Shown here piece after piece: positions 41,614 to 45,174 of a stretch of 64,000 nt of DNA (within the stretch, counting starts at the first letter, position 1; each line of letters opens with the position of its first letter). This DNA comes from Escherichia coli O127:H6 str. E2348/69 (GTDB lineage: Bacteria > Pseudomonadota > Gammaproteobacteria > Enterobacterales > Enterobacteriaceae). The stretch is taken from the NCBI RefSeq assembly GCF_000026545.1, contig NC_011601.1; one strand, written 5' to 3'. The notes beneath the pieces were generated by a model, which did no database searches, was not told the DNA's origin, and saw nothing but the letters and a program-made list of their open reading frames with translations. A program made the position numbers and the translations under genes.

Positions 41614-41937
41614 TTGCGTATTCTTTTTGTCTGTTCGCTATTATTACTTTCTGGATGCAGCCATATGGCTAACGATAGCTGGAGCGGGCAGGATAAAGCT
41701 CAACACTTTATCGCCTCGGCGATGCTTTCCGCCGCCGGAAATGAATATTCACAGCATCAGGGGATGAGCCGGGATCGCAGTGCCATGTTCGGATTAATGT
41801 TCTCTGTCAGTTTGGGGGCGTCAAAAGAGCTTTGGGATAGCCGCCCCGAAGGGAGCGGCTGGAGCTGGAGGGATTTGGCCTGGGATGTCGCCGGTGCAAG
41901 CACCGGCTATACCGTCTGGCAACTGACCCGTCACTAA
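41614..41937 (+). CDS. yfiM: Lipoprotein YfiM (107 aa), TTG start
   Basis: ORF track 41593..41937; lipobox LLLSGCS; TTG at 41614 preceded by ggagg at 41602-41606 gives 107 aa. Confidence 0.85.
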
Positions 41938-43232
41938 AGACGCATCCCCTTCCCTTTGCGATGTAGCATCAAAGAAACCAGAAACGCCACCACGGCCATC
42001 AAGGTCACATACCAGAAGAAGGCTGTTTCCATTCCTATTGATTTCAGCGACAACGCTACGTACTCCGCCGAACCACCAAATATAGCATTAGCGACCGCAT
42101 ATGACAGACCAACGCCTAATGCGCGAACCTGTGCCGGGAACATCTCAGCCTTCAGTATTCCACTGATTGAAGTATAAAAACTCACGATCAGCAGGGCGCA
42201 CATCACCAGACCAAAAGCGGCATAAGGCGAGGAAACGTTCTGCAATGCTGAGAGAATAGGAACGGTAAAAATGGCTGCCAGAGAACCGAAACATAACATT
42301 GAGGTACGACGACCAATCTTATCCGACAGCGCGCCAATAAGTGGTTGAATAAGCATGAATACAAACAATGCGGCAGTCATAATGCCACTCGCCACGTTGG
42401 CATGCATTCCCGCAGTATTTACCAGATACTTCTGCATATAAGTGGTGAAGGTATAGAAACAAAGGGAGCCCGCAGCGGTAAAACCGAGAACCATGATGAA
42501 TGCACGGCGATTGCGCCATAATCCTTTCAGAGATCCAGCTTCTTTTAAAGCGCGTGTTTCTTGTTGTGAAGTTTCATCTAACTGACGACGTAACCACAAC
42601 GCCACAACAGCTAACACAGCCCCTAACGCGAAAGGAATACGCCATCCCCACTCTCTGAGTACAGCGTCTTCCATGGTGTGTTGTAAAACCACGACAACCA
42701 GTAGAGCTAGCAGTTGCCCGCCGATCAACGTCACATACTGAAATGATGCGTAAAAACCTTTGCGCCCTTCAACGGCAACTTCACTCATATAGGTGGCGCT
42801 GGTGCCATATTCTCCGCCAACGGATAATCCCTGGAATAAACGCGCGAGAAGCAATAATGCCGGAGCCCAGGTACCGATTGTTTCGTAGCCTGGCAAACAG
42901 GCGATAACCAGTGAGCCGAAACACATCATACACACCGATAACAACATCGATTTTTTGCGACCATGTTTATCGGCTATGCGGCCAAATAGCCAACCGCCTA
43001 TTGGGCGCATCAGAAATCCTGCAGCAAAAACACCTGCTGTTTGCAGTAGTTGAGTCGTCGTGTTCCCGGAAGGGAAGAAGATGTGGGCGAAGTAGAGTGA
43101 ACAGAACGAGTAGACATAGAAATCGAACCACTCGACCAGATTACCTGAAGAGGCCCCAACAATTGCCCAAATGCGGCGACGAGTATCACTACTTGTCAGT
43201 TTGCTGTCTGCCGTTACAGTACTTTCAGCCAT
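41934..43232 (-). CDS. kgtP: Alpha-ketoglutarate permease, MFS transporter (432 aa)
   Basis: ORF track 41934..43232; 12-TM MFS with metabolite:H+ symporter signature. Confidence 0.96.
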
Positions 43233-43568
43233 GCCATTATGTCTCCTGCCGTAATCCGATGCTTTTGTCGGTCGCTTTTGTTCATTTTTTTGGTAAAGAA
43301 AATGTTATACATTTGTTGCGTATCATTATGCAACCTTAACCATGAATTTAGTTAGCAGGAAAATGGTTATTAAGGAGCTTAAGGATAGATTTCTGGTAAG
43401 GAGGAAGTATGGAAGTGGGCAATTTGGGGAAGACGTATTCGCTGGCGTATGTGGAGGAATAAGCTGCCTCTACCGTGCTTGCGTAGGCCGATGTGATGGA
43501 CACCTCCCGCCTTACGGCATCAATGTGCCAGACTGAGGCGTACCCAGTTCCCAGGTGGAGGTGTCCGT

Positions 43569-44686
43569 CATGAATATTAAGCGTATTGGTCTCGATCTTG
43601 CAAAAACGTTTTTCAGATCCACGGCGTTGATCACCATGAAAAAGTGGTACTGCGAAAAAGGCTGCGCCGTCCCCACATGATGACGTTTTTCTCCGGGCTT
43701 TCTCCCTGCCTCATCGGCATCGAAGCCTGTGGCTCTTCTCATTACTGGGCCCGCGAGCTCACCCGTATGGGCCATACCGTGCGCATTATTCCACCGAAAC
43801 TTGTCAAACCTTATCTCAAAGGTAACAAAAACGACGCCAATGATACAGCCGCCATCTGTGGGGCCATCAGCAGGCCCGGCATGCGATTTGTTGCCCTCAA
43901 ATCGGAAGCCCAGCAGACGCTGCAGGCAGAGCACCGGGTCCGGGTCCGGGTCCGGGTCCGGGTCCGGGTCCGGGTCCGGGTCCGGGTCCGGGTCCGGGTC
44001 CGGGTCCGGGTCCGGGTCCGGGTCCGGGTCCGGGTCCGGGCAAGAATCATCCGCGAGCGAACGGCACTGTGCAATGAAATCCGGGGGCTGTTAAGTGAGT
44101 TTGGTCTGGTGCTGCCCGTGGGGATAAGGCATGTGCGTAAAATCCTGCCGGAAATCCTGTCACAACAGGAGCAGTGGAATGACCGCTTCATCCGTTTGTT
44201 GTGCGAACTGTCAGAGGAAATGCAGATGCTAGATGAACGCATATCGCGTTATGACCGCCGTCCTCATGAGGCTGCAAGGGATGATATCCGTATTAAACGG
44301 CTGATGGAAATAGAGAGTTTTGGCCCGATAGTAGCGAGCGCTTTGTAGCCGCCGTAGGGGATGCGAAGCAATTTAAAAACGGGTGGGAAATGTCAGCCTT
44401 TATTGGGCTGGTTCCGCGACAGCATTCCAGCGGCGGAAAAGAGCGGTTGGGTCATATAAGCAAACGGGGCGACAGTTACCAGAGAACGCTGATAATCCAC
44501 GGTCCCCCCGCAGTACTGAGATTCAGCGCCGGAAAAACAGACAGGCGCAGTCGCTGGCTACAGTCGGTGGCAGAAAGACGCAATAACAATATTGCCGTGG
44601 TGGCGCTGGCAAATAAAAACATCAGGATAGCGTAGGCGATATTAAATCGTGGTGAAGAGTACTGTGGGGTGCCGAATGCGGCGTAA
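43569..44686 (+). pseudogene. IS110-family (DEDD) transposase/recombinase pseudogene: -1 frameshift at A5 run 43601-43605, in-frame 102 bp hexamer expansion, 1 bp deletion near 44345, in-frame TAG at 44633
   Basis: Joined frames read MNIKRIGLDLAK|NVFQIHGVDHHEKVVLRKRLRRPHMMTFFSGLSPCLIGIEACGSSHYWARELTRMGHTVRIIPPKLVKPYLKGNKNDANDTAA...QAEH(RV)17RARIIRERTAL...ESFGPIVASAL|VAAVGDAKQFKNGWEMSAFIGLVPRQHSSGGKERLGHISKRGDSYQRTLIIHG...ANKNIRIA*AILNRGEEY; N- and C-terminal motifs are characteristic of IS110-family recombinases (ORF track 43644..44348 and 44390..44635). Confidence 0.8.
43934..44040. repeat. Perfect hexanucleotide tandem repeat (CCGGGT)x17.8, 107 bp, in frame within the IS110-family tnp pseudogene
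   Basis: Directly visible; encodes (RV)17 in the tnp frame, (GS)n and (PG)n in the other plus frames, (TR)n on the minus strand (see ORF track 43644, 43729, 43811). Confidence 0.98.
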
Positions 44687-44965
44687 ACAGCACTGACCAC
44701 CTTGTAAGTAAACGAGTAATAAACCTGCCGTAAGCGTACAAAGTTATAAAAAACTGATGTGTAACAGGTAAGACCGACATCTGATAAATCCGACCTTATC
44801 CATGGCTCCCTGTAAAGCAAAGCCGGCAGGCCGAAAGGAAACAGATGCGCAGATAACATCATGGCCGGGAACGACGGTACCGTAAGAGAGGCCGGATATA
44901 CGAATGCAACTTACTCCCGTTACACAGATGAAAAATAACTTGCGCAACGGGAGTTGTCCATATAT

Positions 44966-44996
44966 GGATAAGACGTGCCAGCGTCGCATCCGGCAT
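44966..44996. repeat. REP element next to the rrnG terminator
   Basis: Reverse complement gccggatgcgacgctggcacgtcttatcc matches the REP consensus. Confidence 0.7.
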
Positions 44997-45013
44997 TTAT
45001 TCCGCACCAACGC

Positions 45014-45039
45014 AAAAAAGCCCAGTCTTCCGACTGGGC
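45014..45039 (-). terminator. rrnG operon terminator (gcccagtc-ttcc-gactgggc, U-run on minus strand)
   Basis: Hairpin with A6 on the plus strand, immediately downstream of the 5S rRNA on the minus strand. Confidence 0.85.
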
Positions 45040-45054
45040 CTTTCGCTAAATTTG

Positions 45055-45174
45055 ATGCCTGGCAGTTCCCTACTCTCGCATGGGGAGACCCCACACTACC
45101 ATCGGCGCTACGGCGTTTCACTTCTGAGTTCGGCATGGGGTCAGGTGGGACCACCGCGCTAAGGCCGCCAGGCA
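45055..45174 (-). rRNA. rrfG: 5S ribosomal RNA (120 nt)
   Basis: Reverse complement reads TGCCTGGCGGCCTTAGCGCGGTGGTCCCACCTGACCCCATGCCGAACTCAGAAGTGAAACGCCGTAGCGCCGATGGTAGTGTGGGGTCTCCCCATGCGAGAGTAGGGAACTGCCAGGCAT; operon named rrnG by synteny (kgtP/clpB flanks). Confidence 0.97.

What the first reader, a model, noticed from the sequence alone, without database searches (positions are those of the whole stretch)
44917..44996. Hairpin and REP element at the right edge of the IS110-family insertion
A 9 bp-stem hairpin (actcccgtt ... aacgggagt, 44917-44959) is followed by a REP element (44966-44996) and then the rrnG terminator. Some IS110-family members are reported to target REP sequences, so this may be the insertion target or the junction, which would help place the undefined right end of the element.
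Basis: inference. Interest (0 to 1): 0.3.

Follow-up and report, generated by a model that had tools for sequence, protein, structure and literature searches.

The report
RNA-guided IS splitting a REP element
The REP next to the insertion is the right-hand part of the element's own target, which it cut in two, and the hairpin belongs to the right end of a decayed RNA-guided IS1111-type insertion sequence; this is a tidy example of a known kind of mobile element, not a new one.

Summary
Both features exist. The hairpin lies at 44913-44921/44947-44955, 4 nt left of the stated coordinates. The REP remnant lies at 44965-44996.

The window is E. coli O127:H6 E2348/69. Between kgtP and rrfG sits a 1,476-bp IS1111-group (IS110 family) element, 43489-44964, with a frameshifted transposase.

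It has 14-nt subterminal inverted repeats, a 7-nt left extension, a 3-nt right extension and a 278-nt non-coding region downstream of the transposase.

It is inserted inside a REP. GTAGGC lies at the left junction and TGGATAAGACGTGCCAGCGTCGCATCCGGCAT at the right. Joined, they form a complete REP hairpin.

Four other independent copies of the same lineage, plus two further left junctions, sit at the same REP position.

The downstream non-coding region folds into a covariation-supported two-domain seekRNA/bridge RNA. Its loop sequences match the flanks of each copy and the element's own ends.

The hairpin is inside the IS, just 3' of that RNA. It pairs the inner half of the right inverted repeat with an upstream complement and encloses the -35 box of the circle-junction promoter. 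It occurs only in the enterobacterial lineage, and its function is unproven.

Ordinary biology; new member of a known kind.

The parts
43483..43488 (+). Left fragment of the split REP (GTAGGC), chromosomal flank at the left junction
   Evidence: It is homologous to CCAGGC in the IS-free allele L004. The reconstructed empty site aligns in one piece with that allele over all 251 nt. The same GTAG(G/A/C)C precedes the IS in L008, L071, L084, L097, L021 and L003.
43489..44964 (+). Whole IS1111-group (IS110 family) insertion sequence, 1,476 bp including a 96-bp repeat expansion. Non-functional copy.
   Evidence: The ends are defined by comparison with IS-free alleles and with 16 relatives that share the same end geometry. 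Intact lineage members are 1,369-1,370 bp.
43489..43495 (+). 7-nt left terminal extension CGATGTG. Its first two bases, CG, are the core-like dinucleotide.
   Evidence: Family alignment of ends: YAATGGK in relatives, CGATGTR in this lineage. The 7/3 convention comes from PMC11187229.
43496..43509 (+). Left subterminal inverted repeat ATGGACACCTCCCG
   Evidence: the repeat finder I1: 14 nt, 93% complementary to 44948-44961. Conserved across the family.
43493..43571 (+). 5'-UTR hairpin that pairs the left inverted repeat with the Shine-Dalgarno and start-codon region of the transposase gene
   Evidence: I2. RNA fold -43.6 kcal/mol, z = -5.7, 0 of 200 shuffles. A third inverted-repeat-like copy lies next to the start codon in relatives too.
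43570..44686 (+). Transposase pseudogene (DEDD/RuvC-like domain plus Transposase_20 domain). It has frameshifts near 43605 and 44348 and an internal TAG near 44633.
   Evidence: ORF list and three-frame translation. RefSeq annotates it as 'IS110 family transposase, frameshifted'. The repaired translation hits PF01548 and PF02371 and NF033542 at 324 bits.
43937..44038 (+). (GGTCCG)x17 in-frame hexanucleotide expansion inside the transposase gene
   Evidence: the repeat finder D1. Unit counts are 17, 9, 7 and 1 in E2348/69, A25, DCE7 and the L003 remnant.
44778..44847 (+). seekRNA/bridge-RNA domain 1, the target-binding loop. Basal stem CATCTG/CAGATG, inner stem TCC/GGA, apical stem GGCT/AGCC, and two internal-loop strands.
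   Evidence: RNAalifold consensus and pair counts on 16 family members. Helices 1-3 have 13 of 14 pairs with compensatory changes. Coordinates.
44795..44802 (+). Top-strand target guide CTTATCCA, complementary to the right flank TGGATAAG
   Evidence: I16. It covaries with the right flank: TTTATCCG with CGGATAA(A/G), TTTACCCG with CGGGTAAG.
44828..44833 (+). Bottom-strand target guide AGGCCG, identical to left flank AGGC plus core CG
   Evidence: Family comparison of this loop with left flank plus core. Permutation of guide-flank pairings: 0 of 20,000 reach the observed score.
44849..44907 (+). seekRNA/bridge-RNA domain 2, the putative donor-binding loop. Stem ATCATGGCC/GGCCGGAT. Candidate donor guides are ACATC (44856-44860, complement of the left extension) and ATATACGA (44896-44903, matching the circle-junction sequence: right-end ATATA followed by CGA of the left extension).
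   Evidence: Consensus structure. Guide bases covary with the left extension across the family. The stem itself is invariant, so it carries no covariation evidence.
44913..44955 (+). It is internal to the IS.
   Evidence: I4; z = -3.65. Present in lineage copies at other loci. Absent from 15 more distant relatives.
44940..44945 (+). -35 hexamer TTGCGC of the promoter formed only when the IS circularises (17-nt spacer, then -10 TACGAT spanning the right-left junction)
   Evidence: TTGCAA-N17-TAYAAT is found across the joined ends in 13 of 15 more distant relatives. Junction promoters are documented for IS1111 elements in PMC11187229.
44948..44961 (+). Right subterminal inverted repeat CGGGAGTTGTCCAT. 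Its inner 8 nt form most of the 3' arm of the hairpin.
   Evidence: I1. Family alignment.
44962..44964 (+). 3-nt right terminal extension ATA
   Evidence: Invariant in the 16 aligned relatives.
44965..44996 (+). Right part of the split REP: TGGATAAGACGTGCCAGCGTCGCATCCGGCAT
   Evidence: REP consensus match. Weak naRNA4/REP-derived Rfam hit. Joined to 43483-43488 (modelled with a CG core) it folds as a REP hairpin, -12 kcal/mol, z = -3.6.
45016..45043 (-). rrnG terminator hairpin. Context only, not part of the element.
   Evidence: I10. A T-run follows on the minus strand. It lies downstream of the 5S rRNA gene at 45057-45172 (-).

Best explanation
The interval 43489-44964 is a dead copy of an IS1111-group member of the IS110 family of RNA-guided DEDD transposases. 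It integrated into a REP between kgtP and rrfG.

Shown: the insertion point lies two bases into the 5' arm of the REP stem, at GTAGGC | YGGATAAG.

Shown by covariation: target choice is explained by the 278-nt non-coding region downstream of the transposase gene. This region encodes a two-domain seekRNA/bridge RNA. In domain 1 (44778-44847), one internal-loop strand (CTTATCCA) is complementary to the top strand of the right flank. The other (AGGCCG) is identical to the left flank plus core.

Partly shown: domain 2 (44849-44907) carries short stretches that match the element's own terminal extensions.

Inferred by analogy with ISEc11 and ISPa11: the element excises as a circle, and the joined ends create a sigma-70 promoter (TTGCGC-N17-TACGAT).

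Its 3' arm is the inner half of the right subterminal inverted repeat. Its 5' arm is a nearby complement, and its loop holds the -35 box.

Inferred, with low confidence: it forms in the non-coding-region transcript as a 3'-terminal stem-loop that marks or protects the RNA end, or masks the right-end sequence.
For: - Identity: the window is 100% identical to E2348/69 and the ORF is annotated 'IS110 family transposase, frameshifted'. The repaired protein hits PF01548 and PF02371 and NF033542, 'IS110 family RNA-guided transposase', at 324 bits.
- Ends: 14-nt subterminal repeats (I1). The 7-nt and 3-nt extensions match 16 relatives and the published family rule.
- Target: the IS-free allele L004 shows that 43464-43488 is chromosomal. 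The reconstructed empty site aligns in one piece and folds as a REP.
- Independent copies: L008/L045, L071, L084 and L097 each sit in a different REP at the same position. The left junctions of L021 and L003 agree.
- RNA structure: 27 pairs, 93% of cells paired against 24-41% in the slid controls, 16 pairs with compensatory changes, 0 of 500 shuffles.
- Guides: own-flank matches average 12.4 nt against 7.2 nt for other elements' flanks, 0 of 20,000 permutations. Within the lineage the guide changes from TTATCC to TTACCC with GGATAA and GGGTAA REPs.
- Donor guides covary with the left extension.
- Junction promoter: conserved in 13 of 15 more distant relatives.
- Hairpin: z = -3.65. It is carried inside the IS at other loci.
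Against: - No exact empty-site allele exists among 5,426 complete E. coli genomes. The best is 92.9% identical, so the crossover is fixed only to within the 2-nt core. The left junction has CG and the right has TG.
- This copy is a pseudogene. Its top-strand guide loop has lost one base relative to the Klebsiella copy, and its two guides imply different cores (CA against CG).
- No RNA, circle or transposition was observed. All mechanism is inferred from sequence and from published relatives.
- The domain 2 stem is invariant, so it has no covariation support. The donor-guide assignment rests on three classes of left extension and includes some mismatches.
- The hairpin is absent from 15 more distant family members. 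It shows no compensatory double substitution. In L071, an apparently intact copy, it is altered by two one-sided changes (z = -1.2). It may therefore have no function of its own.
Confidence: 0.88

Rival explanations
1. The hairpin has no function of its own. Its 3' arm is conserved because it is the right inverted repeat. Its 5' arm is a fortuitous or relic complement, for example a decayed extra copy of the left-repeat-like sequence ACCTCCCG, that persists by descent in a young lineage.
For: It is absent from 15 more distant relatives whose right ends are otherwise conserved. No compensatory double change occurs among five lineage variants. In L071 two one-sided T-to-C changes weaken it to z = -1.2, although the transposase gene there is intact. 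The last ~160 nt of the IS are close to 90% identical between the E. coli and Klebsiella copies, so retention needs no selection on pairing.
Against: A stem is still predicted in all five variants, including a shifted, bulged one in L071. The energy is unusual for the composition in WIN and L008 (z = -3.65 and -4.1).
Confidence: 0.4
2. The hairpin is an intrinsic transcription terminator that stops transposase or seekRNA transcription from reading out of the IS, antisense into rrnG.
For: It is a stable stem at the 3' end of the transcribed non-coding region. Its position is right for a 3' boundary.
Against: No T-run follows it: the next bases are TGTCCATATATGG. The loop is 25 nt. The terminator scan did not call it.
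Confidence: 0.07
3. The 5' arm of the hairpin is an additional RNA guide that pairs with the top strand of the right end (AACGGGAGT), extending donor recognition into the inverted repeat. On this view it is not an intramolecular hairpin.
For: It has 9-nt complementarity to the right end and lies directly 3' of the putative donor-binding domain. Bridge RNAs do recognise donor DNA by base pairing (PMC11208160).
Against: The published donor sequences lie between the inverted repeats, not inside them. No equivalent complementarity exists in 15 relatives. In ISEc11, 33 bp of the right end and an RNA ending upstream of the last 46 bp are enough.
Confidence: 0.06
4. The REP is merely adjacent by chance, and the IS chose this site for another reason, for example proximity to the rrn terminator or the kgtP promoter.
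For: There is only one insertion site in E. coli, shared by all seven genomes that carry the element, so E. coli alone gives no replication.
Against: Four other independent insertions of the lineage lie in different REPs at the same nucleotide position. The joined flanks rebuild a REP. The guide loops match the REP halves.
Confidence: 0.02

Closest known systems
ISPa11 (IS1111 family, Pseudomonas aeruginosa)
   Same: An IS1111-type element with subterminal inverted repeats and a downstream non-coding region. It inserts at a fixed position in a REP. Its seekRNA co-purifies with the transposase and carries a top-strand match 5' of a bottom-strand match (PMC11187229).
   Different: The host and the REP family differ. 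I did not measure sequence relatedness to ISPa11. The copy here is a pseudogene, and its RNA is only predicted.
IS621 (IS110 group, E. coli; the bridge-RNA prototype)
   Same: An E. coli element of the same superfamily that inserts into REPs under RNA guidance, using target-binding and donor-binding loops (PMC11208160).
   Different: IS621 has its long non-coding end and its bridge RNA upstream of the recombinase gene. It has only 2-3-bp subterminal repeats and a CT core, and it targets ATCAGGCCTAC. The element here has the RNA downstream, 14-nt repeats and a YG core, and it cuts the REP at GTAGGC|YGGATAAG.
ISEc11 (IS1111 family, E. coli/Shigella)
   Same: It has a 7-nt left extension, a circle-junction promoter and a downstream non-coding region that is essential for circle formation and transposition. 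There is no target duplication.
   Different: ISEc11 targets a short linear sequence (GTGAAAATACTG), not a REP. Its relatedness to the element here was not measured.
IS4321/IS5075, ISEc66, ISShdy1 (named IS1111-group elements on enterobacterial plasmids)
   Same: Same transposase family. tblastn identities are 36% (IS4321/IS5075), 40% (ISEc66) and 45% (ISShdy1).
   Different: All are below 60% identity and have different targets; IS4321 and IS5075 target Tn21-family terminal repeats. No named IS in the searched collections is close to this lineage.

Membership tests
IS1111 group of the IS110 family | DEDD/RuvC-like N-terminal domain plus IS110-type C-terminal domain in the transposase | tested here: met
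   PF01548 (E = 1e-13) and PF02371 (E = 1e-19) on the frameshift-repaired translation. NF033542 at 324 bits against a cut-off of 140.
IS1111 group of the IS110 family | Subterminal inverted repeats of about 11-13 bp or more | tested here: met
   14 nt, 93% complementary, 43496-43509 and 44948-44961 (I1). The same repeat occurs in the aligned relatives.
IS1111 group of the IS110 family | Asymmetric terminal extensions, 7 bp on the left and 3 bp on the right | tested here: met
   CGATGTG and ATA. This geometry is constant in the 16 aligned relatives and in 3 metagenome copies. The rule is quoted from PMC11187229.
IS1111 group of the IS110 family | The longer non-coding region lies downstream of the transposase gene | tested here: met
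   278 nt downstream (44687-44964) against 81 nt upstream (43489-43569).
IS1111 group of the IS110 family | No target-site duplication | tested here: inconclusive
   The joined flanks rebuild a REP of normal length in all five insertions. No exact empty site for the E. coli insertion was found. A 2-nt core-like YG occurs at both junctions.
IS1111 group of the IS110 family | A seekRNA/bridge RNA encoded in the non-coding region, with a top-strand match 5' of a bottom-strand match to the target | tested here: met
   Covariation-supported fold. Guide-flank matching gave 0 of 20,000 permutations. The order is top-strand guide (44795-44802), then bottom-strand guide (44828-44833). Expression of the RNA could not be tested.
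IS1111 group of the IS110 family | A circular intermediate with a promoter assembled at the junction | not testable with these tools
   Sequence only: TTGCGC-N17-TACGAT across the joined ends, and TTGCAA-N17-TAYAAT in 13 of 15 more distant relatives.
REP (enterobacterial repetitive extragenic palindrome) | Match to the REP arm consensus GCCKGATGCGRCG, and an extragenic location | tested here: met
   Exact match at 44982-44994 (-), with 0 of 100 shuffles reaching the observed count. It lies between kgtP and rrfG.
REP (enterobacterial repetitive extragenic palindrome) | An imperfect palindrome that forms a stem-loop with a GTAGGCC-type tail | tested here: met
   This holds only after the IS is removed in silico: 43483-43488 joined to the right REP part (CG core modelled) folds at -12 kcal/mol, z = -3.6. 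As it stands, the REP has lost the two basal pairs of its stem.
Rho-independent terminator (considered for the hairpin) | A GC-rich stem with a short loop, followed by a U-run | tested here: not met
   The loop is 25 nt, and the stem is followed by TGTCCATATATGG. The scan did not call it.
IS110 group proper (IS621-like) | A long non-coding left end that encodes the bridge RNA, with very short or absent subterminal repeats | tested here: not met
   The RNA domain lies downstream of the transposase gene and the repeats are 14 nt.

The most novel reading that the evidence does not exclude
The hairpin may be a lineage-specific functional module added to the IS1111 seekRNA. One possibility is a 3' stem-loop that sets the RNA's end and stability. 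Another is an extra guide that pairs with the inner right inverted repeat, linking RNA processing or donor recognition to the sequence that also carries the -35 box of the circle-junction promoter. In addition, the enterobacterial lineage may exploit the 10-nt identity between its invariant donor-loop strand (AGGCCGGATA) and the REP target.
Probability: 0.12. Interest if true: 0.5.

Novelty: new member of a known kind. Interest (0 to 1): 0.3.

Why it matters
It settles the boundaries of an IS that RefSeq annotates only as a frameshifted ORF, and it shows that the adjacent REP is its split target. It also adds an enterobacterial, REP-targeting IS1111-group lineage to the elements for which target guides, and more tentatively donor guides, can be read from sequence. 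Within that lineage the guide has naturally changed between two REP types (GGATAAG and GGGTAAG). Intact 1,369-1,370-bp copies (L071, L097) could be tested directly as programmable recombinases aimed at a multi-copy genomic site. The biology is otherwise expected from work published in 2024.

Tried and rejected
- I first aligned the window with the commonest IS-free kgtP-rrfG allele (L001). This suggested a left breakpoint at 43463/43464 and a 5-bp ATAAG duplication. I rejected it when the L004 allele showed that 43464-43488 is chromosomal, and that the common allele carries a ~32-bp deletion between ATAAG/AGAAG repeats.
- I took AGGCCGGATA (44889-44898) for the bottom-strand target guide, because it equals the REP target over 10 nt. 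I rejected this because the motif GGCCGGATATA is conserved in nearly all family members, whatever their target. The true guide is the variable loop at 44825-44836.
- Rfam has no matching family at either the gathering or the E-value threshold.
- The right end is found in only 7 of 5,426 E. coli genomes, all at this one locus, so E. coli offers no second site.
- The metagenome 16-mer scan returned 120 loci, of which 115 were chance matches.
- The hairpin was tested as a family-wide feature and was not found outside the enterobacterial lineage.
- Partridge & Hall 2003 (PMC219399) is not held. The 7/3-bp rule is cited from PMC11187229 instead.
- The NRZ14408 remnant (L003) shares the left junction but has no recognisable right end.

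Full report
**Observation**

The window is E. coli O127:H6 E2348/69, 100% identical over the queried interval. The landmarks are as follows.
- kgtP lies at 41934-43232 on the minus strand.
- The rrnG 5S rRNA gene lies at 45057-45172 on the minus strand.
- A frameshifted 'IS110 family transposase' is annotated between them.

The hairpin is real. Folded alone it gives -15.0 kcal/mol, z = -3.65, and none of 200 shuffles folds as well.

The REP is real. GCCGGATGCGACG matches the REP arm consensus exactly at 44982-44994 on the minus strand. The rrnG terminator palindrome follows at 45016-45043 (I10).

**Locating the breakpoints**

I first aligned the window with the commonest IS-free kgtP-rrfG allele (L001). 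This suggested a left breakpoint at about 43463 and an ATAAG duplication. That reading is an artefact.

A second IS-free allele clarifies the junction. It is represented by L004, and 778 genomes match the reconstructed empty site over at least 80% of its length. It reads ...GGAGGAATAAGCTGCCCCTACCGTGCCTGCCCAGGCTGGAGAAGACGTGCCAGCG.... Window bases 43459-43488 are therefore chromosomal.

The junctions read GCGTAGGC | CGATGTGATGGACACC on the left and GTTGTCCATATA | TGGATAAGACGTGCC on the right. The IS spans 43489-44964.

The empty site, built by joining 43330-43488 to 44965-45056, aligns in one piece over all 251 nt with the L004-type alleles at 92.9% identity. The REP rebuilt from the two flanks (modelled with a CG core) folds as a typical REP hairpin, z = -3.6.

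The IS therefore sits inside the REP, two bases into the 5' arm of its stem.

No exact empty site exists in the 5,426 genomes, so the crossover is fixed only to within a 2-nt core. That core reads CG at the left junction and TG at the right.

**Independent insertions**

All seven E. coli genomes that carry this right end have it at this one locus. Replication had to come from outside E. coli.

| Copy | Source | Left flank | Right flank |
|---|---|---|---|
| L008/L045 | Klebsiella plasmid, 69% nt identity, also decayed | GTAGGC | CGGATAAAGCATTTATGCCGCCATCCGGC |
| L071 | metagenome contig | GTAGGC | CGGATAAGGCGGTCACGCCGCCATCCGGC |
| L084 | metagenome contig | GTAGGC | CGGGTAAGCGCAGCGCCACCCGGC |
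| L097 | metagenome contig | GTAGAC | CGGGTAAGGCGAAGCCGCCACCCGGC |

Two further left junctions agree: a K. oxytoca contig, GTAGCC|CGATGTG, and an E. coli remnant beside ugpB, GTAGGC|CGATGTG.

L071 and L097 are 1,370 and 1,369 bp and encode intact 336-residue transposases.

**Family assignment**

- The repaired translation hits PF01548 and PF02371 and NF033542, 'IS110 family RNA-guided transposase'.
- The ends carry 14-nt subterminal inverted repeats (I1), a 7-nt left extension and a 3-nt right extension.
- The long non-coding region is downstream of the transposase gene: 278 nt against 81 nt upstream.
- These are the published hallmarks of the IS1111 group (PMC11187229).
- A genome-contig scan found 32 relatives at 38-78% amino-acid identity. 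Fifteen of these, together with the Klebsiella plasmid copy L008, share the same inverted repeat, the same 7/3 geometry and the ATA right extension.
- Across the joined ends, 13 of the 15 more distant relatives form TTGCAA-N17-TAYAAT. The window forms TTGCGC-N17-TACGAT. This fits the circle-junction promoter known for the group.
- The nearest named elements are distant: ISShdy1 45%, ISEc66 40%, IS5075/IS4321 36%.

**The RNA that explains the target**

Aligning the last 190 nt of 16 elements gives a consensus fold of 27 pairs.
- 93% of cells are paired, against 24-41% when partners are slid by 1-3 columns.
- 16 pairs carry compensatory changes, against 3-7 in the slid controls.
- None of 500 shuffles reaches the observed values.

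Domain 1 (window 44778-44847) is a stem, a two-sided internal loop and an apical stem.
- The 5' loop strand is complementary to the top strand of each element's right flank.
- The 3' loop strand is identical to each element's left flank plus core.
- Own-flank matches average 12.4 nt, against 7.2 nt for other elements' flanks. None of 20,000 permutations reaches this.
- In the window the guides are CTTATCCA (44795-44802), pairing with TGGATAAG, and AGGCCG (44828-44833), matching AGGC plus CG.
- Within the lineage the first guide reads TTTATCCG where the REP has GGATAA and TTTACCCG where it has GGGTAA.
- The order, top-strand match before bottom-strand match, is the order reported for IS1111 seekRNAs.

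Domain 2 (44849-44907) has an invariant stem, ATCATGGCC/GGCCGGAT. It is flanked by short stretches that track the element's own ends.
- The base after ATATA is C where the left extension starts with C and T where it starts with T, in 16 of 16 elements.
- The upstream strand follows the reverse complement of the left extension: CCCATT, CTCAT and ACATC for CAATGGG, CAATGAG and CGATGTG.
- I read this as the donor-binding loop. The stem itself offers no covariation, and some guide positions mismatch.

**The hairpin itself**

It lies immediately 3' of the RNA domains and inside the IS, because it travels with the element to other loci.
- Its 3' arm is AA plus the inner 7 nt of the right inverted repeat.
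- Its loop contains the -35 hexamer.
- It is predicted in all five lineage variants. In L071 two one-sided changes shift and weaken it to z = -1.2.
- It is absent from the 15 more distant relatives.
- No compensatory double substitution was seen.
- It lacks a U-run, so it is not a classical terminator.

By analogy with ISEc11, neither the RNA nor the right end should need its 5' arm. In ISEc11, 33 bp of the right end and an RNA that stops before the last 46 bp are enough.

I judge two readings about equally likely, and I state the hairpin's function with low confidence:
- a 3' stem-loop of the non-coding-region transcript;
- a feature with no function of its own.

**State of this copy**

The transposase gene has two frameshifts and an internal stop. 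It also carries an in-frame (GGTCCG)17 expansion, which has 9 and 7 units in two other strains and 1 unit in the related remnant.

The first guide loop has lost one base relative to the Klebsiella copy. The element is a fossil.

**Verdict**

The REP is the target, and the right end abuts it at 44964/44965.

The mechanism is that of known IS1111 seekRNA/bridge-RNA elements. The lineage appears unnamed in the collections searched, so I rate it a new member of a known kind, of modest interest.

Noticed in passing
window 43937-44038: An in-frame hexanucleotide repeat, (GGTCCG)x17, lies inside the transposase pseudogene and encodes an Arg-Val run. The unit number varies between strains: 17 in E2348/69, 9 in A25, 7 in DCE7 and 1 in the related remnant L003. 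It therefore behaves as a variable-number tandem repeat.
   Followed up: partly
window 43493-43571: A very stable 5'-UTR hairpin (-43.6 kcal/mol, z = -5.7) pairs the left inverted repeat with a third inverted-repeat-like copy that contains the Shine-Dalgarno sequence and the start codon of the transposase gene. Relatives carry the same arrangement. It probably blocks translation of read-in transcripts.
   Followed up: partly
window 43459-43488, compared with L001, L004, L005, L006 and L007: The kgtP-rrfG spacer has at least three IS-free alleles. The commonest lacks about 32 bp between ATAAG/AGAAG repeats, including the left half of the REP. An alignment against that allele produces a false breakpoint and a false 5-bp duplication.
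   Followed up: yes
window 44889-44898, compared with the rebuilt target GTAGGCCGGATAAG: The near-invariant 3' strand of RNA domain 2 (AGGCCGGATA in the window) is identical over 10 nt to the enterobacterial REP target. The motif is conserved even in relatives with unrelated targets, so this is either coincidence or a predisposition of this lineage toward REPs.
   Followed up: no
window 44671-44683: A REP-like stretch, GCCGAATGCGGCGTAAAC (16 of 18 matches to the REP arm consensus as I recall it; one search confirms the first 13 bases with one mismatch), lies at the 3' end of the transposase ORF, inside the IS. The Klebsiella copy has a 16-nt gap there.
   Followed up: no
L003 1495-2600 (E. coli NRZ14408, downstream of ugpB): A second, more decayed relative of this IS has the same left junction (GTAGGC|CGATGTG) but no recognisable right end. 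Its 3' half diverges, as if it were a hybrid or a more distant element.
   Followed up: partly
L031 about 2475-2525: In an Oleiphilus-related relative the right end appears tandemly duplicated: ...CAAACTAGGAGGAGTCCATATA CAAACTAGGAGGAGTCCATATA CGG.
   Followed up: no
L084 and L097, compared with L071 and L008: Natural retargeting occurs within the lineage. The guide loop reads TTTACCCG in copies that sit in GGGTAAG-type REPs and TTTATCCG in copies that sit in GGATAAG-type REPs.
   Followed up: yes
window 45016-45043 (-): The rrnG terminator hairpin followed by TTTTTT, visible by eye, was not reported by the consensus terminator scan, which listed only a weak site near kgtP.
   Followed up: no
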